From the IMG/VR virus record IMGVR_UViG_2526164633_000052: DNA of 15,394 nucleotides; one strand, given 5' to 3'. Each line of letters starts with the position of its first letter. Within the stretch, counting starts at the first letter, position 1. Made by a program: the position numbers and the translations under genes. Source of the stretch: a virus (lineage: Duplodnaviria; Heunggongvirae; Uroviricota; Caudoviricetes). The notes beneath the pieces were generated by a model, which was given only the letters and a program-made list of their open reading frames with translations, made no database searches and had not been told where the DNA came from. Below are positions 3,054 to 15,089 of this stretch, piece by piece.

Positions 3054-3326
3054 TTAGTTATTTATTTTCCTATTTGTTCTTACCCTCTCCCATTCAATTC
3101 TGCCTTCTTCACGCCGTTTATCTATATATTCAGCAAGATCCTGAATGTTGATGCAGCGCTTTGCTTTCTGTGATGTACCAACACGATAAGTCGGGATCGG
3201 CAACTGGCATGCATTTGCTTTCGCTTCTGCTGTGTTAGGGCTCATACCGAAATACTTTTGGCATACAGCTGACAGCTCAATGTTTGGGGTATTGAATTCA
3301 GCCATCAGTAAAAACAAGGTGTTCAT
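3054..3326 (-). CDS. PrtN-family / excisionase-like small DNA-binding protein
   Basis: Translation from Met at 3326 (MNTLFLLMAEFNTPNIELSAVCQKYFG...) resembles the pyocin-activator PrtN family; GGAG RBS 6 nt upstream of that ATG; the ORF is open further upstream to GTG 3353. Confidence 0.65.
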   Translation of the reverse strand: MNTLFLLMAEFNTPNIELSAVCQKYFGMSPNTAEAKANACQLPIPTYRVGTSQKAKRCINIQDLAEYIDKRREEGRIEWERVRTNRKINN

Positions 3327-3362
3327 AATTTTCTCCATCAAAACCGGCTGCACCCGGGAAAA

Positions 3363-3935
3363 TCATAATTCTGTGCTGGTGGCAGGAATTAATTTCTGCC
3401 AGATAGCGGAAACATATTTTGCCTGATGACGGGCATCAGCCAGGGCGTTGTGCCGGTCGCCATCGAAAGGCATGTCCATTTTGGGGTCGAATCCGATGGA
3501 ACGCCCAAGCGTAACGATCGTGCGTACATCGTGGTCATTCCAGTACGCCCACGGGCAGATTTGTCCTGCTCGCTCGTAAGCTCCACGTAAAATTACGTTG
3601 TCGAAGGTGGCCCCGTTACCCCAGACTTTTAAATATTTCGTATTGTCTGCGTGCCGGTTAATGAAATGATTTAGTTCTGAGAGAGCATCGCTGATCGACA
3701 AAGTATCATCAATACAGATTGCAGCTCGTGCTTCAGGGCTTTGTTTCAACCACCACAGGATGGTATCGCCGTCAGGTGTAGCTCCTTGCCCCATAGCACT
3801 TTCCAGGCTAACAACCGTATAGAATTCTTGTCCGATGTCTCCGGTTTCTGGAGTGAAGAACACCGCGCCAATGGAAACGATCGGTGCATCCTTATTTTTC
3901 CCCATCGTCTCAAGGTCGATCATTAAGTTGTTCAT
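3363..3935 (-). CDS. DEDDh-type 3'-5' exonuclease (DnaQ-like fold)
   Basis: Motifs MIDLET (Exo I), WGNGATFDNV (Exo II), HNALADA (Exo III with His); AGGAGG RBS 7 nt before ATG 3935; the start overlaps the stop of the upstream gene. Confidence 0.8.
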   Translation of the reverse strand: MNNLMIDLETMGKNKDAPIVSIGAVFFTPETGDIGQEFYTVVSLESAMGQGATPDGDTILWWLKQSPEARAAICIDDTLSISDALSELNHFINRHADNTKYLKVWGNGATFDNVILRGAYERAGQICPWAYWNDHDVRTIVTLGRSIGFDPKMDMPFDGDRHNALADARHQAKYVSAIWQKLIPATSTEL

Positions 3936-10507: not shown

Positions 10508-11182
10508 TTAGGCCTTTATTTTGTATCTTCTTGGTTTTCCTGAGAAAATTACTGTACCAATTATAGAGCAATTACCGTTGATCTTAATGTAAGGTTCAGG
10601 CCAGTTTGGGTTTAATGCTTTGAGGTAACGCTGTGTTCCATCTTCTATCAACCGCTTAAAGGTGGTTTCGCCTGTATCGTGCATCAATGCAATAACGTCG
10701 TCACCGTGGCAGGCAGGGACTTCAGGATCTACAAAAATCATGTCTCCCGGGCGGTACTCATCAATCATTGAATCACCAATCACCCGCAAGATATAAGTCA
10801 TTTCGCCACAGGGTACAGGGCAGGGATAAGTTTCTGCTGTGCTCAAATCAACCTCAGAATAGCCAACTTCTTTCCATGCTCCGGCCTGTACCCATGATAT
10901 GACAGGGACTAACGTTATTTGTTTGTTAGTAATTGAAACATCAGGTTTTTTTGTGATGTTTGTTGTCTGGTGTTCTTGATCAAGCCATCCGACAGGCAGG
11001 TCGAAACATTTTTCGATGTGCCGTGCCATGCTGTCACCGATATTTTTAGTAGCACCATCTCCCATAAACCTGCTGGTCTGGGTTGGCTCGCGATCAATCA
11101 TGGTGGCAAAGGAAGAATTCCCGCCAACACCATCTCTCAGTTTTCTGGCGTTAGACCGCCGGATGTCATGGACTGTTTTCAT
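10508..11182 (-). CDS. CI-like prophage repressor with C-terminal S24 (LexA-like) autopeptidase domain
   Basis: C-terminal VIGDSM...FKRL motifs (Ser/Lys dyad) typical of LexA/CI autocleavage domains; divergent from a Cro-like gene across an operator-containing intergenic region. Confidence 0.85.
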   Translation of the reverse strand: MKTVHDIRRSNARKLRDGVGGNSSFATMIDREPTQTSRFMGDGATKNIGDSMARHIEKCFDLPVGWLDQEHQTTNITKKPDVSITNKQITLVPVISWVQAGAWKEVGYSEVDLSTAETYPCPVPCGEMTYILRVIGDSMIDEYRPGDMIFVDPEVPACHGDDVIALMHDTGETTFKRLIEDGTQRYLKALNPNWPEPYIKINGNCSIIGTVIFSGKPRRYKIKA

Positions 11183-11198
11183 AACGAAATTAAAACCT

Positions 11199-11250
11199 TT
11201 GTACCGATAGGGTACAAGTATCTTGAAGGTTCATCTCAATCATGTAATAT
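11199..11250 (+). promoter_or_regulatory. OR/pR region: operator palindrome plus candidate rightward promoter
   Basis: Palindrome ttgtaccgatagggtacaa (11199-11217); TTGAAG (11223-11228), 16-bp spacer, TAATAT (11245-11250); GGAGG RBS at 11258-11262 before ATG 11273. Confidence 0.45.
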
Positions 11251-11272
11251 GTATATCGGAGGTACATATTGT

Positions 11273-11473
11273 ATGAAAGCGTATTGGGACTCTTTAACCA
11301 AAGAACAGCAGGGCGAGTTGGCCGGAAAAGTTGGCTCAACACCAGGCTACTTACGGCTGGTTTTCAATGGTTATAAAAAAGCCAGTTTTGTGCTGGCTAA
11401 AAAACTTGAGCAATGCACGTCAGGTGCAATTACGAAATATGACTTAAGACCGGATATCTATCCGAAAGATTAA
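11273..11473 (+). CDS. Cro-like (Cro/YdaS-type) small HTH regulator, 66 aa
   Basis: Position immediately right of the repressor and OR; HTH-like segment ELAGKVGSTPGYLRLVFNG; the ORF-track N-terminal extension overlaps the repressor gene and is rejected. Confidence 0.7.
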   Translation: MKAYWDSLTKEQQGELAGKVGSTPGYLRLVFNGYKKASFVLAKKLEQCTSGAITKYDLRPDIYPKD

Positions 11474-11504
11474 CAGAACACCTTCAATTTTTAACCACAG
11501 AACG

Positions 11505-12068
11505 ATGAGGCTAACCGTGGGTAAGCATCACTGGAAAGTAGAAAAACAGCCTGAGTGGTACGTGAAAGCTGTCAGAAAAACTATCGCGGCGTTGCCGGGG
11601 GGTTACGCTGAAGCTGCTGAGTGGCTGGATGTAACAGAGAACGCTTTATTCAACCGCCTTCGTGCAGATGGCGATCAGATTTTCCCGCTGGGATGGGCAA
11701 TGATTTTACAGCGCGCGGCTGGCACTCACTACATTGCGGATGCTGTCGCACAGTCTGCTGGTGGGGTGTTTGTATCGCTTCCTGAAATTGAGGAAGTAGA
11801 GAACGCCGATATAAACCAGCGCCTGCTGGAAGTCATCGAACAGATCGGGAGTTACTCAAAGCAGATTCGTTCGGCAATCGAAGATGGGGTAGTGGAGCCA
11901 CACGAGCAGACAGCAATTAATGATGAGTTGTATCTGTCAATTTCGAAGCTCCAGGAGCATGCAGCACTGGTCTACAAAATCTTTTGCGCTCCAGAAAAGA
12001 GTGACGCCCGCGAGTGTGCAGCTCCGGGCGTCGTGGCGTTTTGTGTCTGTGGAGAAACTAACGCATGA
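11505..12068 (+). CDS. CII-like / YdaT-like regulatory protein (assignment tentative)
   Basis: Second gene of the rightward operon, where CII or YdaT sits in lambdoid phages; HTH-like segment GYAEAAEWLDVTENALFNRLR; alternative GTG start at 11517 has a better RBS. Confidence 0.5.
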   Translation: MRLTVGKHHWKVEKQPEWYVKAVRKTIAALPGGYAEAAEWLDVTENALFNRLRADGDQIFPLGWAMILQRAAGTHYIADAVAQSAGGVFVSLPEIEEVENADINQRLLEVIEQIGSYSKQIRSAIEDGVVEPHEQTAINDELYLSISKLQEHAALVYKIFCAPEKSDARECAAPGVVAFCVCGETNA

Positions 12069-12901
12069 ACAGTTTAACGGCAAATAACCGTTTGTCGCAA
12101 CAGCTGGTGGTCAGCGTCGCTGAACACCTGTTGTTACGGCATGAATGCAGATTACCAAATCACCTGGCTGTAAGTAACCACAGAGAACTTTACCTGACTG
12201 TGGGGGGCGAGTTGTGCAGGAACTTAACCGCTGGTTTCGTGACGGAAGAGGACTTTATGTTCATGTTATTCGTTGGGAGCCAGAAACACAGCGCGTTATC
12301 TATCTTCGCAAAGACTACCCGCATGAGTGCTTTAGTCCTTTGTGGAAATTCAGGCGTGATTTTGTTGAGTGTGAAGGACCACCAGCACATTGATTCTGCC
12401 ATTCCGGGACGTTACACTGTTCAGGCACCTTATAAAGCGGGTGCCGGGATTGGCGTCCTGGAATTGATCAAGGCGATATATGACGCGCCAGCGTCTTTTT
12501 TATCGTCCGCATTTGCTCACATCAAAGTTATGGTGGGCTGGGCGGGGGCATCGAAAGATGCGCCGGTTTCCTTGATCACCGGTTACGCCAACCCCGTTCA
12601 GTTCACCACCAGCGAAATTGGCGTTTCCGGTGGTGGAAGTATTTCACCGATCAAGGAGGCTGCCATCATGGCTACTGTCCCAGCCCTCACTCGTCTGAAT
12701 GATGAAGACTTACATAAACTCAGTTATGTAACAACTGCACTACGTGCTCTGCGCAAGGTAACTCTTTCGGATCCCCAGGCGCATCAGGTTTTGGTAGAAA
12801 CCCTTCTTAACTTGCAGGCTGAACGTATTCGTCTGGCGGATAAGGCTAATTTTCATATTCACCGTCTCCTGAATATCAGCGGAGGGCATCGTCATGCTTA
12901 A
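12065..12901 (+). CDS. Hypothetical protein (278-aa ORF); gene structure uncertain
   Basis: Long open frame translationally coupled to both neighbours (ATGA at 12065; downstream ATG 12894 overlaps its end); no family recognised; 12178-12402 is open in three frames. Confidence 0.4.
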   Translation: MNSLTANNRLSQQLVVSVAEHLLLRHECRLPNHLAVSNHRELYLTVGGELCRNLTAGFVTEEDFMFMLFVGSQKHSALSIFAKTTRMSALVLCGNSGVILLSVKDHQHIDSAIPGRYTVQAPYKAGAGIGVLELIKAIYDAPASFLSSAFAHIKVMVGWAGASKDAPVSLITGYANPVQFTTSEIGVSGGGSISPIKEAAIMATVPALTRLNDEDLHKLSYVTTALRALRKVTLSDPQAHQVLVETLLNLQAERIRLADKANFHIHRLLNISGGHRHA

Positions 12902-13130
12902 TCCGTTGAGCCTCAATATTCGCCGTTTACTTCAGCGTAAAAAAACATCAATTCCTACAGTTGGGCAGTGGTACACCACGCCTGCAGGGCATGTTCTACG
13001 TGTTAGCCTGGTTGACCGTGAATGCCAGAAGGTGATTTGTGAACCGCTGGGCCGTAATTACCGCGTCAGTATGCCGCTTATAGCCTTTCGCTCCGGAAAA
13101 AACATGAAGCATCTCGGAGGTGCAGCATGA
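12894..13130 (+). CDS. Hypothetical small protein (78 aa)
   Basis: Strong GGAGG RBS 8 nt before ATG 12894; stop overlaps the start of the O-like gene (ATGA). Confidence 0.45.
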   Translation: MLNPLSLNIRRLLQRKKTSIPTVGQWYTTPAGHVLRVSLVDRECQKVICEPLGRNYRVSMPLIAFRSGKNMKHLGGAA

Positions 13131-13945
13131 GTATGGAGCTGATGGTTAAAGCGATGAAAATTCGAGTGGGTAATCCATTGCGAAAACTGGTTCTGATCAA
13201 GCTGGCTGATAATGCCAGCGATCAGGGTGAGTGCTGGCCCAGCTATCAGCATATCGCTGATCAGTGCGAGATTAGCAAACGTTCTGTGATGAATCATATT
13301 GCGGCCCTCTGTGAGTCCGGGCTGGTAAAAAAAGTCACCCGGAAAGGTGAAAAAGGTAACTCAAGTAATATCTATCTCCTTCATCTGGATGGTGCAGGAG
13401 ATTCACTAGGGGGTAGTGCAAATAATTCACTATCTGGTGCAGCAAATTCACCAGGTAGTGCAGGAGTTGCACCAGGGGGTAGTGCAGGAGATTCACCCAG
13501 AACCAGTCACTCTTTTGAACCAGTCAAAGAACCAGTCAATGAACCAATAGCTGTTGGTGCATCAGTTGATGAGTCCGTGCGAGTTCGTTCAAACCGACCG
13601 GAATACTCTCCGGAGTTTGAGCAGGCATGGCTGGCATATCCCAAACGTGCTGGTGGCAATTCAAAATCTGCAGCCTTCAAAGCCTGGAAAGCCCGTTTGA
13701 ACGAGGGGGTAAACCCCGAAACCATGCTGGAAGGTGTGAAACGCTACGCGGGCTGGGTATCTGCGATGGGTAACAGCGGCACACAATTTGTGAAACAGGC
13801 TGTCACGTTCTTTGGTCCGGATCGTCATTTCGAAGAATCCTGGGAAGTTCCTGCGATATCTGCAGCCAGACGCGAGGACCCGTACTTCAAAGCCAGTTAC
13901 GACAACGTGGACTACAGCCAGATCCCGGCAGGATTCAGGGGGTGA
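13127..13945 (+). CDS. Phage replication initiator (lambda O-like architecture): N-terminal winged-HTH domain, low-complexity linker, C-terminal domain
   Basis: N-terminus LRKLVLIKLADNASDQGECWPSYQHIADQCEISKRSVMNHIAAL resembles HTH-type phage replication proteins; iteron-like DNA repeats lie within the Gly/Ser/Ala-rich linker. Confidence 0.7.
   Translation: MSMELMVKAMKIRVGNPLRKLVLIKLADNASDQGECWPSYQHIADQCEISKRSVMNHIAALCESGLVKKVTRKGEKGNSSNIYLLHLDGAGDSLGGSANNSLSGAANSPGSAGVAPGGSAGDSPRTSHSFEPVKEPVNEPIAVGASVDESVRVRSNRPEYSPEFEQAWLAYPKRAGGNSKSAAFKAWKARLNEGVNPETMLEGVKRYAGWVSAMGNSGTQFVKQAVTFFGPDRHFEESWEVPAISAARREDPYFKASYDNVDYSQIPAGFRG
13391..13550. repeat. Iteron-like tandem repeats (candidate replication origin) inside the O-like gene
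   Basis: About five tandem 21-24-bp units sharing attcac...ggtagtgcagga (13391-13500), then three or four copies of gaaccagtca at 11-16-bp spacing (13501-13550). Confidence 0.55.
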
Positions 13946-14436
13946 TCATGAGTCTTTTGAATGAAGTTCAGAAATTCATTGAAGCCCATCCGGGGTGTAC
14001 TTCCGGAGACATTGCGGATGCTTTTGCAGGTTACTCACGGCAGCGCGTTCTGCAGTCAGCAAGCAAGTTACGTCAGAGTGGGCGTGTGGCTCACCGTTGT
14101 GAAGGAGATACACGCAGACATTTCCCACGCCTGACTGAGAGAGCGCAGGAGCCGGAACTACAACCAGTTCGTGAAACCAGACCTGTGCGCAATTTCTATG
14201 TCGGCACTAACGATCCCCGGGTGATTTTGTGCCTGACCCGCCAGGCGGAAGAACTGGAGTCCAGGGGCCTATACCGTCGTGCTGCAACGGTGTGGATGGC
14301 GGCATTCCGTGAAAGCCACTCCCAGCCAGAACGAAACAATTTTCTGGCGCGTCGTGAGCAGTGTTTACGGAAAAGCAGCAAGCGCGCTGTATCGGGTGAT
14401 GAGTGGTATCTGTCAGGGAATTACGTGGGGGCTTAA
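13942..14436 (+). CDS. PerC/ANR-like transcriptional regulator with N-terminal winged-helix-like region
   Basis: C-terminal LESRGLYRRAATVWMAAF...FLARREQCLRK resembles the PerC-family signature as I recall it. Confidence 0.5.
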   Translation: MIMSLLNEVQKFIEAHPGCTSGDIADAFAGYSRQRVLQSASKLRQSGRVAHRCEGDTRRHFPRLTERAQEPELQPVRETRPVRNFYVGTNDPRVILCLTRQAEELESRGLYRRAATVWMAAFRESHSQPERNNFLARREQCLRKSSKRAVSGDEWYLSGNYVGA

Positions 14437-15089
14437 TGAGTAATAAATATTGCCAGGAGCTGGTGGAACTGCGGAACAAACCAGCCCATGAACTGAAGGA
14501 AGTGGGTGATCAGTGGCGCACGCCGGACAACATTTTCTGGGGAATTAACACCCTGTTTGGCCCGTTTGTTCTGGATCTGTTCACTGACGGTGATAACGCC
14601 AAATGTGCCGCGTATTACACGGCGGAAGACAACGCGCTGGCGCATGACTGGTCAGAACGCCTTGTGGAGCTTAAAGGTGCTGCCTTTGGTAATCCTCCAT
14701 ACAGCCGCGCCAGTCAGCATGAGGGGCAATACATCACCGGCATGCGTTACATCATGAAACATGCCAGTGCCATGCGTGATAAGGGCGGGCGCTATGTTTT
14801 CCTGATCAAAGCTGCCACCAGCGAAGTGTGGTGGCCGGAAGATGCGGACCATATTGCTTTTATTCGCGGGCGTATTGGTTTTGAACTGCCTGCCTGGTTT
14901 ATCCCGAAGGATGAGAAGCAGGTGCCGACAGGCGCTTTCTTCGCTGGTGCTATTGCTGTTTTTGACAAGACCTGGAAGGGACCGGCAATCAGCTACATCG
15001 GGCGCGATGAACTTGAGGCATGTGGTGAGGCCTTTCTGGCGCAGGTTCGCCAGCAGGCAGAAAAACTGGTCAGGGAGATGGTGGCATGA
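14436..15089 (+). CDS. Phage-type DNA N6-adenine methyltransferase (Dam-like, orphan)
   Basis: Catalytic NPPY motif (AFGNPPYS) and overall size; start set at ATG 14436 overlapping the upstream stop rather than the ORF-track Met at 14403. Confidence 0.7.
   Translation: MSNKYCQELVELRNKPAHELKEVGDQWRTPDNIFWGINTLFGPFVLDLFTDGDNAKCAAYYTAEDNALAHDWSERLVELKGAAFGNPPYSRASQHEGQYITGMRYIMKHASAMRDKGGRYVFLIKAATSEVWWPEDADHIAFIRGRIGFELPAWFIPKDEKQVPTGAFFAGAIAVFDKTWKGPAISYIGRDELEACGEAFLAQVRQQAEKLVREMVA

What the first reader, a model, noticed from the sequence alone, without database searches (positions are those of the whole stretch)
12065..13130. Unknown 278-aa and 78-aa ORFs inserted between the CII-like and O-like genes, with ambiguous coding frames
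Lambda has nothing between cII and O; here about 1.07 kb of translationally coupled unknown coding sequence occupies that slot, in the path of early-right transcription, which is a plausible site for an accessory, anti-defence or defence module. Gene structure is uncertain: 12178-12402 is open in all three forward/reverse frames involved. An alternative 59-codon frame starting at GTG 12214 (preceded by a G-rich SD-like run) translates to a protein-like sequence (VQELNRWFRDGRGLYVHVIRWEPETQRVIYLRKDYPHECFSPLWKFRRDFVECEGPPAH). The 278-aa ORF may therefore be a fusion of a short upstream gene and a downstream gene starting internally, or carry a frameshift.
Basis: partly seen in the sequence, partly recalled or inferred. 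Interest (0 to 1): 0.55.

Follow-up and report, generated by a model that had tools for sequence, protein, structure and literature searches.

The report
RNA switch hidden inside a false gene
The "278-aa unknown gene" of this SfV/e14-like prophage is not one protein gene: it holds a short leader reading frame, a small conserved protein gene in another frame, two known regulatory RNA genes (IsrK-like and C4 antisense RNA) and a 77-aa gene whose ribosome-binding site the C4 RNA can cover, all just upstream of the phage replication gene.

Summary
The ORFs 12065-12901 and 12894-13130 and the 59-codon alternative frame at 12214-12393 are all present. The 278-aa ORF is not a conventional gene.

What the region holds, in order:
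- 12065-12213: a ymfM-like leader ORF, coupled to the CII-like gene ymfL.
- 12214-12393: a real DUF4222 gene in the -1 frame (Pfam E 1e-13). Variation across 32 loci is mainly at its third codon positions.
- 12425-12501: an IsrK-like sRNA with a1/b1 sites and a terminator.
- 12526-12613: a C4 antisense RNA (Rfam 82 bits). All 270 pair cells are kept across 10 variants.
- 12668-12901: a 77-aa gene. Its Shine-Dalgarno lies in a 13-bp helix with the C4 loop, and this pairing co-varies across 8 specificity types.
- 12894-13130: a 78-aa distant DUF4222 relative, coupled to the O-like gene.

The Pfam "Ash" match is the conceptual translation of the two RNA genes. The obsolete phage P4 "cI protein" ORF gives the same match.

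The 278-codon frame is stop-free in every homologue without showing amino-acid-level conservation. This suggests ribosome transit through it is selected.

By-product: the E. coli K-12 gene ymfM, assigned as the SfiC division inhibitor, contains an intact, unannotated DUF4222 gene.

This is a known kind of module (P1 immI / Gifsy-1 IsrK) in a new arrangement.

The parts
12065..12213 (+). ymfM-homologous leader ORF segment. It is the first 50 codons of the 278-codon frame. Its ATG overlaps the stop of the CII-like gene ymfL (gcATGA).
   Evidence: - It uses the same start as the K-12 e14 gene ymfM.
- In 32 loci an ORF starts at this ATGA overlap.
- The roughly 55-aa N-terminal part shows coding periodicity in types A, B and C: 0.176/0.142/0.269, 0.244/0.272/0.417 and 0.172/0.228/0.333.
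- In the window's own lineage, window vs L084 has 28 differences split 7/13/8 by codon position. That gives no sign of amino-acid selection.
12065..12901 (+). The 278-codon open frame (SfV orf37 as deposited). It is kept open but is not conserved as a protein over most of its length.
   Evidence: - There are no stops in this frame in 72 IMG/VR loci, 26 unique leaders and 5 cassette lengths. The other frames carry 1-7 and 0-5 stops.
- Stop-prone DUF4222 codons have a purine at the third base in 0 of 148 cases, against 51 of 148 at control codons.
- There is no codon periodicity over isrK and C4.
- The most variable position over the DUF4222 overlap is codon position 2 of this frame.
12214..12393 (+). 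DUF4222 gene: 59 aa, GTG start, in the -1 frame relative to the 278-codon frame. The predicted product is a small SH3/Tudor-like beta-barrel.
   Evidence: - Pfam PF13973 at E 9.5e-14; phrog_1343 at E 1e-36.
- PGAP annotates it.
- 33 homologues were found, and 81 clusters at 50% identity.
- Nucleotide diversity at its codon positions 1/2/3 is 0.183/0.122/0.474.
12390..12418 (+). Candidate weak sigma-70 promoter of the RNA cassette: -35 TTGATT at 12390-12395, a 17-nt spacer, and -10 TACACT at 12413-12418. The predicted start is about 12425. The -35 overlaps the DUF4222 stop codon.
   Evidence: - It lies at the position homologous to the strong TTGAC(A/T/G)-18 nt-TATATT promoters upstream of isrK in Gifsy-1, PA8, PA28 and F039.
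- It matches only 8 of 12 consensus positions, so the consensus scan did not call it.
- Promoter function is inferred, not shown.
12425..12501 (+). IsrK-like sRNA and leader. It carries C4-target-like sites a1 (12450-12456, TTGGCGT) and b1 (12465-12473, TGATCAAGG). It also carries an intrinsic terminator: stem 12482-12495 followed by a T run.
   Evidence: - Rfam RF01394: 64.2 bits against a gathering score of 50, full length.
- A weak c4-a1b1 match (RF03163) at 12412-12464.
- The terminator scan calls the hairpin.
- b1 co-varies with the C4 loop across cassette types.
12526..12613 (+). C4-type antisense RNA. Loop b' is at 12565-12577 (GGUUUCCUUGAUC) and the single-stranded a' is at 12585-12591 (ACGCCAA).
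   Evidence: - Rfam RF01695: 82.3 bits against a gathering score of 45, E 3e-15, full length.
- On 10 distinct variants, 270 of 270 pair cells are standard pairs and 7 pairs change on both sides. Slid controls give 35-49% paired.
12618..12661 (+). C4 target sites on the mRNA: a2 (12618-12624, TTGGCGT) and b2 (12649-12661, GATCAAGGAGGCT). b2 contains the Shine-Dalgarno AAGGAGG at 12653-12659.
   Evidence: - b'-b2 forms a 13-bp uninterrupted helix and a'-a2 a 7-bp helix.
- There are 8 b specificity types and 2 a types, each with its matching partner.
- The layout matches the annotated P1 a2/b2 sites before icd.
12668..12901 (+). 77-aa gene (ORF77). It is the C4-controlled ORF, in the position that icd holds in P1. 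Its product is a predicted helical hairpin.
   Evidence: - The Shine-Dalgarno lies 8 nt upstream of the ATG.
- Its first 8 codons are shared with the Rha-type genes of sister cassettes, after which it diverges.
- Codon position 2 is almost invariant: summed diversity 1.95/0.13/2.06.
- Only close homologues exist; it matches phrog_4908.
- The AlphaFold2 model has pLDDT 84 and gives no informative fold match.
- There is no similarity to P1 Icd.
- An alternative in-frame AUG at 12530 sits at the position of the first orf45 AUG of Gifsy-1, at the C4 5' end. It would give a 123-aa form.
12894..13130 (+). 78-aa gene (ORF78). Its start overlaps the ORF77 stop by 8 nt. Its stop overlaps the ATG of the O-like replication gene at 13127. 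It is a distant DUF4222-like protein.
   Evidence: - phrog_1153 at E 8e-41.
- The 3' 168 nt are constant across cassette types, while the 5' 69 nt change with the cassette.
- A profile of 52 diverse DUF4222 proteins scores it 15.0 bits. It ranks second of 201 six-frame ORFs, and the next scores 1.8 bits.
- Weak concordant signals come from hhalign and PHROG.
- Diversity at codon positions 1/2/3 is 0.027/0.016/0.045.
12190..12402 (-). Reverse-strand 70-aa ORF. It is spurious.
   Evidence: It is the exact antisense of the DUF4222 codons, so it stays open only while TTA, CTA and TCA codons are absent. It is broken in 13 of 32 loci.
13127..13945 (+). O-like replication initiator (context). It is the last gene in the chain of overlapping start and stop codons.
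   Evidence: Pfam HTH_36 and DnaD_N. It is annotated as a replication protein in SfV.

Best explanation
The region 12065-13130 is a layered regulatory module, not two unknown protein genes.

Shown here:
- A ymfM-like reading frame starts on the stop codon of the CII-like gene.
- A conserved small protein gene (DUF4222) is embedded out of frame in it.
- Downstream lie an IsrK-like leader sRNA with a terminator and a C4-type antisense RNA.
- The two exposed segments of C4 are complementary to two sites on the mRNA. One of those sites is the Shine-Dalgarno of a 77-aa gene.
- That gene overlaps a 78-aa DUF4222-like gene, which overlaps the replication initiator gene.
- The C4 loop, the upstream b1 site and the Shine-Dalgarno site change together in at least 8 allelic types among E. 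coli prophages.

Inferred from P1/P7 immI, P4 and Gifsy-1:
- The cassette has its own weak promoter.
- C4 is cut out of read-through transcripts.
- C4 blocks ribosome loading at the 77-aa gene. Through translational coupling and polarity this limits expression of ORF78 and the replication gene.
- It acts in trans on a superinfecting phage of the same C4 type.
- The IsrK-like RNA, which carries a1/b1, competes for C4 and relieves the block.

Also inferred:
- The 278-codon frame is kept free of stops so that ribosomes arriving from the CII-like gene on PR-initiated transcripts can run through the embedded gene, the terminator and C4 into the coupled genes.
- This would distinguish lytic transcripts, which are translated through, from cassette-promoter transcripts, which are untranslated and C4-controlled.
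For: RNA genes
- Rfam isrK at 64.2 bits and C4 at 82.3 bits, both full length.
- Both are full length in 10 sister cassette loci (the nine IMG/VR variants and L084).
- C4 pairs are 100% conserved, with 7 double-sided changes.

Target pairing
- The b'-b2 helix is 13 bp and covers the Shine-Dalgarno. Cognate helices are 10-14 bp in 7 of the 8 types (7 bp in L056) and co-vary.
- The order a1, b1, c4, a2, b2, small ORF, overlapping next gene is the same as annotated in P1.

DUF4222
- Pfam, PHROG and PGAP all recognise it, and it shows codon periodicity.

"Ash" equals RNA
- The Pfam Ash match at aa 117-210 corresponds to nt 12413-12694, which covers isrK, C4 and the targets.
- The obsolete P4 "cI protein" ORF gives the same Pfam match and contains the Rfam C4 hit.
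- There is no codon periodicity in the Ash frame.

Module is an insertion
- e14-type loci lack it, and there DUF4222 is coupled directly to the replication gene.

Open frame
- The frame is open in 32 of 32 diverse loci, against a median 6% expected under synonymous reshuffling.
- 0 of 148 stop-prone codons have a purine at the third base, against 51 of 148 controls.
- There are no stops through the cassette in 26 unique leaders, and the length variants differ by 3 nt.
- The same holds in three other early-operon contexts: phiP27, Stx1_14040 and PhiR49_2.
- Stand-alone cassettes with strong promoters have closed frames.

Gifsy-1 precedent
- Translation through the C4-like region (orf45) is needed for the downstream gene, and IsrK activates it in trans (PMC4825925).
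Against: - No expression data exist for this locus. Promoter activity, C4 processing, repression and the direction of IsrK action are all taken from other phages.
- The window's cassette promoter is a poor consensus match (8 of 12) and was not called by the scan.
- The C4-controlled gene here is not an antirepressor, unlike every characterised case. The biological output is therefore unknown.
- If ribosomes do run through b2 from upstream, C4 could not block them. The two ideas fit together only if RNA processing or the promoter of origin separates the two populations of transcripts.
- The stop-avoidance statistics are not corrected for shared ancestry, and structured G+C-rich RNA is intrinsically poor in stop codons.
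- In the window's own lineage the leader peptide shows no amino-acid constraint. This rests on a comparison of two sequences.
Confidence: 0.7

Rival explanations
1. The 278-aa ORF encodes one genuine protein, an "Ash-family" or "immunity region" transcriptional regulator as deposited for SfV orf37. The RNA matches are incidental.
For: - The frame is open in all homologues.
- Pfam Phage_ASH scores 67.8 bits.
- SfV and phage 2H10 records annotate it as one CDS.
Against: - Over 12214-12393 the variable position is codon position 2 of this frame, and the other frame is the conserved protein.
- Over isrK and C4 there is no periodicity, while base pairs are 100% conserved with compensatory changes.
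- The Ash model also matches the P4 "cI" ORF. P4 immunity is known to be an RNA (own knowledge), and that ORF contains the Rfam C4 hit.
- e14-type relatives end this frame 20 nt before the DUF4222 stop.
Confidence: 0.05
2. The PGAP gene model is correct: DUF4222 (12214-12393), a 181-aa Ash-family protein from GTG 12356, and the 78-aa protein. The 12065-12213 segment is non-coding.
For: - The RefSeq annotation of the identical sequence uses this model.
- The window's leader segment has no family match and shows no amino-acid constraint against L084.
Against: - GTG 12356 has no Shine-Dalgarno, and the "Ash" part shows RNA-type conservation.
- A strong Shine-Dalgarno precedes ATG 12668 and is the C4 target.
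- The leader ORF starts on the ymfL stop in all 32 loci, and it is coding in types A, B and C.
Confidence: 0.1
3. The anatomy above is right, but the open 278-codon frame is a passive by-product of shared ancestry, conserved DUF4222 codons and stop-poor structured RNA. Nothing translates through the cassette. Control is purely by the C4/IsrK RNAs acting on the 12668 start.
For: - The sequences are related.
- A third frame is also stop-free in 4 of 26 leaders.
- G+C-rich stems disfavour TAA, TAG and TGA.
- The leader peptide is unconstrained in this lineage.
Against: - Synonymous variation at stop-prone codons is frequent but occurs only among safe codons: GTT/GTC 17:15, and CTT/CTC at two sites 17:4 and 11:12.
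- Random substitution at the observed divergence would close the frame in 63-92% of trials per type.
- The 274- and 277-nt leaders differ by exactly one codon.
- Three other early-operon contexts are open, while four stand-alone contexts are closed across the cassette.
Confidence: 0.25
4. The cassette works as in the Gifsy-1 model, not as a C4 repressor. The long transcript folds into an inactive structure. The short IsrK RNA, acting in trans, opens it and activates translation starting at the AUG in the C4 5' end (12530).
For: - This was shown experimentally for the homologous Gifsy-1 locus (PMC4825925).
- The AUG of UUAUGGUGGG is conserved at 12530.
Against: - It is not exclusive of C4 repression.
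- The perfect co-variation of the C4 loop with the Shine-Dalgarno of the downstream ATG is what the P1 model predicts.
- In the window the 12530 frame is fused in frame to ORF77. In Gifsy-1 the frame instead ends in an AUGA overlap.
Confidence: 0.35

Closest known systems
Phage P1/P7 immI operon (P51 promoters, a1 b1, c4 antisense RNA, a2 b2, icd, ant)
   Same: - The order of elements is the same: a1, b1, C4, a2, b2 over the ribosome-binding site, a small ORF of about 75 codons, then an overlapping next gene.
- It belongs to the same Rfam family.
- It has allelic specificity types, as P1 and P7 do (own knowledge for P1/P7).
   Different: - It is embedded in the early-right operon of a lambdoid prophage, between a cII-like gene and the replication gene.
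- An upstream reading frame runs through it.
- The small ORF is unrelated to Icd.
- The genes under control are a DUF4222-like protein and the replication initiator, not an antirepressor.
Gifsy-1 isrK-orf45-anrP locus (Hershko-Shalev et al. 2016, PMC4825925)
   Same: - The isrK and C4-like sequences are homologous.
- The AUG at the C4 5' end is the same.
- A translated frame runs through the C4 region and is coupled to the downstream gene.
- Conservation is at nucleotide level rather than amino-acid level, as that paper itself states.
   Different: - Gifsy-1 has a strong own promoter, sits between genes after Q, and controls an ORF6N antirepressor.
- There orf45 is in a different frame and ends in an AUGA overlap.
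- Here the frame is continuous from the cII-like gene to the end of ORF77.
Phage P4 immunity (CI RNA with seqA/seqC targets)
   Same: Rfam C4 and isrK both match the P4 immunity region. The obsolete P4 "cI protein" ORF matches Pfam Phage_ASH, just as the window ORF does.
   Different: P4 CI acts by premature transcription termination on the replication operon of a satellite phage (own knowledge). No such mechanism was tested here.
E. coli K-12 e14 ymfL-ymfM-oweE (ymfM, the proposed SfiC division inhibitor)
   Same: - The ymfL gene is the same and the ATGA-coupled start is the same.
- The embedded DUF4222 gene is the same.
- The window and e14 share the DUF4222 core and the start of the frame.
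   Different: - e14 has no RNA cassette, and its ymfM frame stops 20 nt before the DUF4222 stop, about 10 nt before the replication gene start.
- The window's leader peptide is a divergent, shorter version without the conserved PVPG motif.

Membership tests
C4 antisense RNA / P1 immI-type control (Rfam RF01695, clan CL00128) | Covariance-model score above the curated gathering score, full length | tested here: met
   82.3 bits against 45, model positions 1-87 of 87, E 3e-15.
C4 antisense RNA / P1 immI-type control (Rfam RF01695, clan CL00128) | Long closing stem plus two hairpins, maintained by compensatory changes | tested here: met
   270 of 270 cells are paired in 10 distinct sequences, and 7 pairs change on both sides. 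Slid controls give 35-49%.
C4 antisense RNA / P1 immI-type control (Rfam RF01695, clan CL00128) | Exposed a' and b' segments complementary to a2/b2 on the mRNA, with b2 over the ribosome-binding site of the next ORF | tested here: met
   The b'-b2 helix is 13 bp and covers AAGGAGG. The a'-a2 helix is 7 bp. Pairing co-varies in 8 b types and 2 a types.
C4 antisense RNA / P1 immI-type control (Rfam RF01695, clan CL00128) | Upstream a1/b1 copies of the target sites | tested here: met
   a1 at 12450-12456 and b1 at 12465-12473. b1 co-varies with b'.
C4 antisense RNA / P1 immI-type control (Rfam RF01695, clan CL00128) | The controlled operon encodes an antirepressor | tested here: not met
   ORF77 and ORF78 have no Ant, Rha, ORF6N or KilA-N match. 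Sister cassettes and other contexts do carry Rha, ORF6N or P22_AR_C genes.
C4 antisense RNA / P1 immI-type control (Rfam RF01695, clan CL00128) | C4 is excised by RNase P and represses in trans, with Rho-dependent polarity | not testable with these tools
   This needs RNA analysis and genetics. It is known for P1/P7 from the literature (own knowledge).
IsrK sRNA (Rfam RF01394) | Covariance-model score above the gathering score, with a terminator hairpin and U tail | tested here: met
   64.2 bits against 50, full length. The terminator is called at 12482-12495 plus a T run.
IsrK sRNA (Rfam RF01394) | Own promoter directly upstream | tested here: inconclusive
   The homologous position reads TTGATT-17 nt-TACACT (8 of 12), against TTGACA-18 nt-TATATT in Gifsy-1. 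The scan did not call it.
DUF4222 (Pfam PF13973) | Profile score above the cut-off over the whole domain | tested here: met
   51.1 bits against 27, profile positions 4-51 of 53.
DUF4222 (Pfam PF13973) | Evolves as a protein-coding gene with its own start | tested here: met
   Diversity is 0.183/0.122/0.474 by codon position. An ATG, GTG or TTG sits at the aligned start in all 32 loci, with an upstream stop in that frame at -54 or closer in 29 of 32 loci (-66 to -117 in L085, L091 and L111).
Phage_ASH "Ash protein family" (Pfam PF10554) | Profile score above the cut-off | tested here: met
   67.8 bits against 26 at aa 117-210 of the 278-aa ORF.
Phage_ASH "Ash protein family" (Pfam PF10554) | The matched stretch behaves as a protein-coding sequence | tested here: not met
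   There is no third-position excess: isrK 0.141/0.190/0.087 and C4 0.176/0.152/0.159. The stretch coincides with two Rfam RNAs. The P4 "cI" ORF behaves the same way.
YmfM (K-12 b1148, phrog_1170) | ORF starting on the ymfL stop codon | tested here: met
   gcATGAAC is identical in the window and e14.
YmfM (K-12 b1148, phrog_1170) | Conserved N-terminal domain of about 55 aa | tested here: inconclusive
   The window segment has no PHROG match. It aligns without gaps to type A, with about 10 of 25 identities in the core, but lacks the PVPG motif.
YmfM (K-12 b1148, phrog_1170) | Frame ends about 10 nt before the replication gene start | tested here: not met
   The stop at +157 is absent in the window and in L084, so the frame runs on to 12901.

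The most novel reading that the evidence does not exclude
The reading frame that starts on the stop codon of the cII-like gene would be a selected "ribosome conveyor". Its amino-acid sequence is largely irrelevant, but it must stay open. That lets ribosomes from PR transcripts pass through an out-of-frame gene, an intrinsic terminator and the C4 RNA, and deliver translation to the replication gene. Transcripts from the cassette's own promoter would stay untranslated and under C4 control.

A corollary concerns E. coli K-12. The filamentation assigned to the 112-aa YmfM (SfiC) could be due, wholly or partly, to the unannotated 59-aa DUF4222 protein encoded inside ymfM.
Probability: 0.25. Interest if true: 0.8.

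Novelty: new variant of a known kind. Interest (0 to 1): 0.6.

Why it matters
- It corrects a widespread annotation. "Ash family protein", "immunity region" and "transcriptional regulator" calls in hundreds of lambdoid and Stx phages and thousands of E. coli genomes overlie two RNA genes. The Pfam family PF10554 appears to model their translation.
- It shows an immI-type RNA immunity switch placed in front of a replication gene rather than an antirepressor. At least eight interchangeable specificity alleles circulate among E. coli prophages. This bears on superinfection exclusion and prophage cross-talk, including in Stx phages.
- It exposes a conserved pair of overlapping reading frames in which one frame is kept open without its protein sequence being conserved. 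That is an unusual constraint and can be tested.
- It makes the 40-year-old SfiC question sharper. The published ymfM clones and deletions also carry or remove an intact DUF4222 gene, so frame-specific mutants are needed.

Tried and rejected
- **Programmed -1 frameshift joining the leader domain to DUF4222.** Rejected. There is no X XXY YYZ site in most types. DUF4222 has its own ATG, GTG or TTG at the same aligned position. Its frame is closed 0-54 nt upstream in most loci, and only 0-3 nt upstream in L084, L112 and L114.
- **Homology of ORF77, DUF4222, ORF78 or the leader domain to P1 Icd.** None found by BLASTP or hhalign.
- **Function of ORF77.** Pfam and NCBIfam give nothing, and PHROGs give only the unnamed family phrog_4908 and a match to the C-terminal part of phrog_3960. 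PDB sequence search gives nothing significant. Fold search gives only generic helical hairpins and designed proteins, with no E <= 0.001. Only close homologues exist.
- **DUF4222 against PDB by sequence.** No hit. By fold there are only low-Z SH3/Tudor-like matches. The RNA-polymerase-binding Tudor domains among them are a lead, not a result.
- **The reverse 70-aa ORF.** Not conserved.
- **Sigma-70 promoter scan over 11200-13400.** No site at the tool's threshold.
- **ORF78-DUF4222 relation by hhalign.** Not significant on its own: E 0.0057 and E 0.13. It is accepted only as "distant, probable" after the broader profile test.
- **Structure prediction of alignment A2.** It was repeated with alignment A4.


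Full report
**Context**

The window is the immunity and replication region of an SfV/e14-type lambdoid prophage. It is 100% identical to E. coli FDAARGOS_1059 and 99.7% identical to Shigella phage SfV over 11400-13400. The gene order, is:
- a LexA-like repressor, ymfK, at 10508-11182 (-);
- a cro-like gene, ymfT, at 11273-11473;
- the CII-like gene ymfL at 11517-12068, matching Pfam Phage_CP76;
- the region of the finding;
- an O-like initiator at 13127-13945, matching HTH_36 and DnaD_N;
- a PerC-like gene and a Dam methylase.

**Observation**

The deposited annotations disagree with one another. SfV calls one 278-aa orf37 "immunity region". PGAP calls a DUF4222 protein (12214-12393), a 181-aa "ash family protein" from GTG 12356, and the 78-aa protein.

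**The alternative frame is a real gene**

- The 59-codon frame matches Pfam DUF4222 at E 9.5e-14 and phrog_1343 at E 1e-36.
- It has 33 homologues at 64-97% identity and 81 clusters at 50% identity in the representative library.
- I fetched 32 diverse loci, one genome per species, covering Citrobacter, Enterobacter, Kluyvera, Kosakonia and others.
- Across 32 distinct sequences, nucleotide diversity at DUF4222 codon positions 1/2/3 is 0.183/0.122/0.474. In the 278-aa frame the most variable position is therefore codon position 2.
- An AlphaFold2 model (pLDDT 85) is a five-stranded small beta-barrel with a short helix.

**The middle of the "278-aa ORF" is two RNA genes**

- Rfam finds a full-length C4 antisense RNA at 12526-12613 (82.3 bits against a gathering score of 45).
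- It finds a full-length isrK at 12425-12501 (64.2 bits against 50) and a weak c4-a1b1 match.
- The only Pfam match of the 278-aa ORF is Phage_ASH at aa 117-210. That is nt 12413-12694, which is exactly isrK, C4 and the target sites.
- In phage P4 the obsolete "cI gene product (137 aa)" ORF gives the same Pfam match (E 4e-16). It contains the Rfam C4 hit, with isrK just upstream.
- P4 immunity is known to be a processed RNA (own knowledge: Forti et al. 1995).
- In the Ash frame there is no codon periodicity over isrK (0.141/0.190/0.087) or C4 (0.176/0.152/0.159).
- On 10 distinct C4 variants all 270 pair cells are standard pairs and 7 pairs change on both sides. Slid controls give 35-49%.
- "Ash family protein" is therefore best read as the conceptual translation of RNA genes.

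**The switch**

Eighty IMG/VR loci share a nearly identical leader and DUF4222 but carry a mosaic cassette between DUF4222 and the replication gene. There are two forms:
- a 733-nt form, as in the window, with C4, ORF77 and ORF78;
- 1037-1052-nt forms in which C4 is followed by a Rha-family gene. That gene shares its first 8 codons with ORF77. It is followed by a 73-aa ORF with the same C-terminal 55 residues as ORF78.

Across the eight loop types compared (seven from these cassettes plus L084), the C4 loop b', the upstream b1 site and the b2 site change together:
- GATCAAGG with CCTTGATC in the window;
- GCATACGG with CCGTATGC;
- CAACATAG with CTATGTTG;
- CACCAAAG with CTTTGGTG;
- GACTACCG with CGGTAGTC;
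- GTTATCGG with CCGATAAC;
- GCTACC with GGTAGC;
- CGCACATG with CATGTGCG.

The a site has two types. In the window b'-b2 is a 13-bp helix (12565-12577 with 12649-12661). It covers the Shine-Dalgarno AAGGAGG (12653-12659) of ATG 12668. The a'-a2 helix is 7 bp.

The P1 record annotates the same order: promoters, a1, b1, c4, a2, b2, icd (73 aa), then overlapping ant1. The architecture is therefore immI-like.

The homologous Gifsy-1 locus has been studied as isrK-orf45-anrP. There the AUG of orf45 lies in the C4 5' end. Translation through the C4 region is needed for the downstream gene. The short IsrK RNA activates in trans. Conservation is at nucleotide level, not amino-acid level (PMC4825925; sequence).

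**The protein genes after the switch**

*ORF77 (12668-12901)*
- It has a good Shine-Dalgarno and an almost invariant second codon position.
- It has only close relatives, in SfV, 2H10, Ayreon and Stx2c phages.
- It has no Pfam, NCBIfam or PDB match and no similarity to P1 Icd.
- Its predicted structure is a helical hairpin, which is uninformative.

*ORF78 (12894-13130)*
- It matches phrog_1153.
- A profile built from 52 diverse DUF4222 proteins ranks it second of 201 six-frame ORFs of the window. It scores 15.0 bits, against 99.8 for DUF4222 itself and 1.8 for the next ORF.
- The hhalign and PHROG cross-matches are weak but use the same register.
- I take ORF78 as a distant DUF4222 relative. 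The cassette is then bracketed by two DUF4222-like genes, and the right recombination boundary lies inside ORF78.

In other genomic contexts the C4-controlled gene is antirepressor-like: ORF6N, Rha or P22_AR_C. The window is unusual in this respect. What lies under control here is ORF77, ORF78 and, through overlapping start and stop codons, the replication initiator.

**The leader and K-12 ymfM**

- The ATG at 12065 is the start of the K-12 e14 gene ymfM, annotated in NC_000913.3 as "cell division inhibitor YmfM".
- e14 lacks the RNA cassette. Its DUF4222 homologue has 59 codons, a TTG start and an AAGGAGA Shine-Dalgarno. It lies inside ymfM in the other frame and overlaps the start of the replication-gene remnant oweE.
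- In all 32 diverse loci an ORF starts on the stop of the cII-like gene and is open to +157/+160 relative to the DUF4222 start.
- Its non-overlapping part of about 55 aa shows coding periodicity in three sequence types. It is therefore a real coding region.
- Its tail across DUF4222 is not conserved as protein.
- The next gene, a replication initiator of several types, starts at +169 to +181 in most cassette-less loci. That is about 10 nt after the ymfM-frame stop and overlaps the DUF4222 stop.

**The frame is kept open**

- With the DUF4222 protein held fixed and synonymous codons drawn from local usage, the ymfM frame stays open in a median of 6% of trials and at most 17%. It is open in 32 of 32 loci.
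- At Val, Leu and Ile codons followed by A or G, a purine at the third base would create a stop in the ymfM frame. The third base is a purine in 0 of 148 cases, against 51 of 148 at control codons. Synonymous change is frequent, but only among safe codons. This test is not corrected for phylogeny.
- In the window and in L084 the +157 stop is lost, and the frame runs on.
- In all 72 cassette loci (26 unique leaders, 5 cassette lengths) the frame has no stop from the DUF4222 stop to the end of the C4-controlled gene. The other frames have 1-7 and 0-5 stops. The 274- and 277-nt leaders differ by one codon.
- Three other early-operon contexts (phiP27, Stx1_14040, PhiR49_2) also have a CDS that starts near the end of the upstream gene (overlapping its stop in phiP27, 3 nt after it in Stx1_14040, about 109 nt after it in PhiR49_2) and reads through isrK and C4 in frame with the controlled gene.
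- Stand-alone cassettes in Gifsy-1, PA8 and PA28 have strong TTGACa-18 nt-TATATT promoters, and the frame in phase with the gene ATG closes 24-27 nt upstream. In F039 that frame stays open for 213 nt, through C4 and most of isrK, but closes 30 nt into isrK.
- In the window's lineage the leader peptide itself shows no amino-acid constraint: 7/13/8 differences by codon position against L084, compared with 1/2/25 in ymfL.

My inference is that what is selected is passage of ribosomes, not the peptide.

**Mechanism proposed**

Only the anatomy and the co-variation are shown here. The rest is inferred from P1/P7, P4 and Gifsy-1.
- A weak cassette promoter (TTGATT 12390-12395, TACACT 12413-12418) makes the IsrK-like RNA and, by read-through, C4.
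- C4 covers the ORF77 Shine-Dalgarno on transcripts that carry no upstream ribosomes. It would do the same in trans on a superinfecting phage of the same type. This limits ORF77, ORF78 and the replication gene.
- The a1/b1-bearing RNA competes for C4.
- On PR transcripts, ribosomes coming from ymfL run through the whole frame.

Weak points of this proposal:
- There are no expression data for this locus.
- The promoter is a poor consensus match.
- The function of ORF77 is unknown.
- How C4 repression and through-translation coexist is unclear.

**Known or new**

- The RNA families, DUF4222 and ymfM are all known objects.
- One Stx phage record already annotates isrK and C4 as ncRNAs.
- The cassette is present in 306 phage records.
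- I found no paper noting the following, within the limits of the library searched:
  - the ymfM/DUF4222 overlap;
  - the stop-free frame;
  - the identity of the Ash match with the RNA genes;
  - a C4 switch in front of a replication gene.

I file it as a new variant of a known kind.

**K-12 consequence**

- Ansari et al. cloned the whole ymfM ORF in pBAD24 and deleted ymfM. They made no frame-specific mutants. Their clone therefore carries all but the last 20 nt of the DUF4222 ORF (stop-less, lacking its last six codons) together with its own Shine-Dalgarno.
- PGAP annotates DUF4222 and not ymfM at this locus in about 2000 E. coli genomes, including other MG1655 assemblies. The curated K-12 record annotates only ymfM.
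- Which product causes filamentation is therefore open.

Noticed in passing
L003 (NC_000913.3) 3502-3681, inside ymfM 3323-3661: E. coli K-12 e14 carries an intact, unannotated 59-codon DUF4222 ORF inside ymfM in another frame. It has a TTG start and an AAGGAGA Shine-Dalgarno. PGAP annotates DUF4222 and not ymfM at this locus in about 2000 genomes. The published filamentation clone (the ymfM ORF) carries all but the last 20 nt of it, and the ymfM deletion removes it.
   Followed up: partly
L116 (phage P4) 8168-8584 (-); window 12413-12694: Pfam PF10554 (Phage_ASH) matches conceptual translations of the isrK/C4 (P4 CI RNA) locus. The family, and the "ash family protein" names derived from it, appear to describe RNA genes.
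   Followed up: yes
L004-L083, cassette between the DUF4222 stop and the O-like start: At least 8 C4 specificity alleles (b') and 2 a' alleles circulate among otherwise nearly identical E. coli prophages. They are combined with either ORF77 or a Rha-family gene. Mosaic boundaries lie about 24 nt into the controlled gene and inside ORF78.
   Followed up: yes
L075 (SfV itself), a2 site equivalent to window 12618-12624: SfV reads TTGCCGT where the window and the other cassettes read TTGGCGT. This is a single change that breaks the 7-bp a'-a2 helix. It could be an immunity-relevant mutation or a sequencing error.
   Followed up: no
L096 (Phytobacter sp. V91) 2501-2680: DUF4222 carries an in-frame stop at codon 7 (W to stop), while the overlapping ymfM-type frame stays open.
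   Followed up: no
P0044 (123 aa, representative library): This is a gene call in which the distal half of a type-C leader domain is fused in frame to DUF4222. That implies indels near the junction in the source sequence. It may be a natural fusion or an assembly error.
   Followed up: no
L105 (Vagococcus sp. WN89Y contig) and L113 (Geobacteraceae MAG contig): Enterobacterial-type ymfL/ymfM/DUF4222 prophage sequence appears in genomes labelled Vagococcus and Geobacteraceae. Contamination or mis-binning is likely.
   Followed up: no
L084-L115, +169 to +181 after the DUF4222 start: DUF4222 is always immediately upstream of, and overlapping, a replication-initiator gene. That gene belongs to at least three different N-terminal types, which suggests a functional link between DUF4222 and replication initiation. 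The fold resembles RNA-polymerase-binding Tudor domains at low Z.
   Followed up: partly
window 13942-14436 and 14436-15089: A PerC-family gene (Pfam E 1e-9) and a Dam-type methylase follow the O-like gene, with overlapping start and stop codons. The early-right operon is therefore a long chain of coupled ORFs.
   Followed up: no
L123 (Stx1a phage Stx1_14040) 1588-2610: The annotated 340-aa "antirepressor Ant" begins with a peptide resembling the out-of-frame ymfM tail across DUF4222, then reads through isrK and C4. This is another composite ORF of the same kind.
   Followed up: partly
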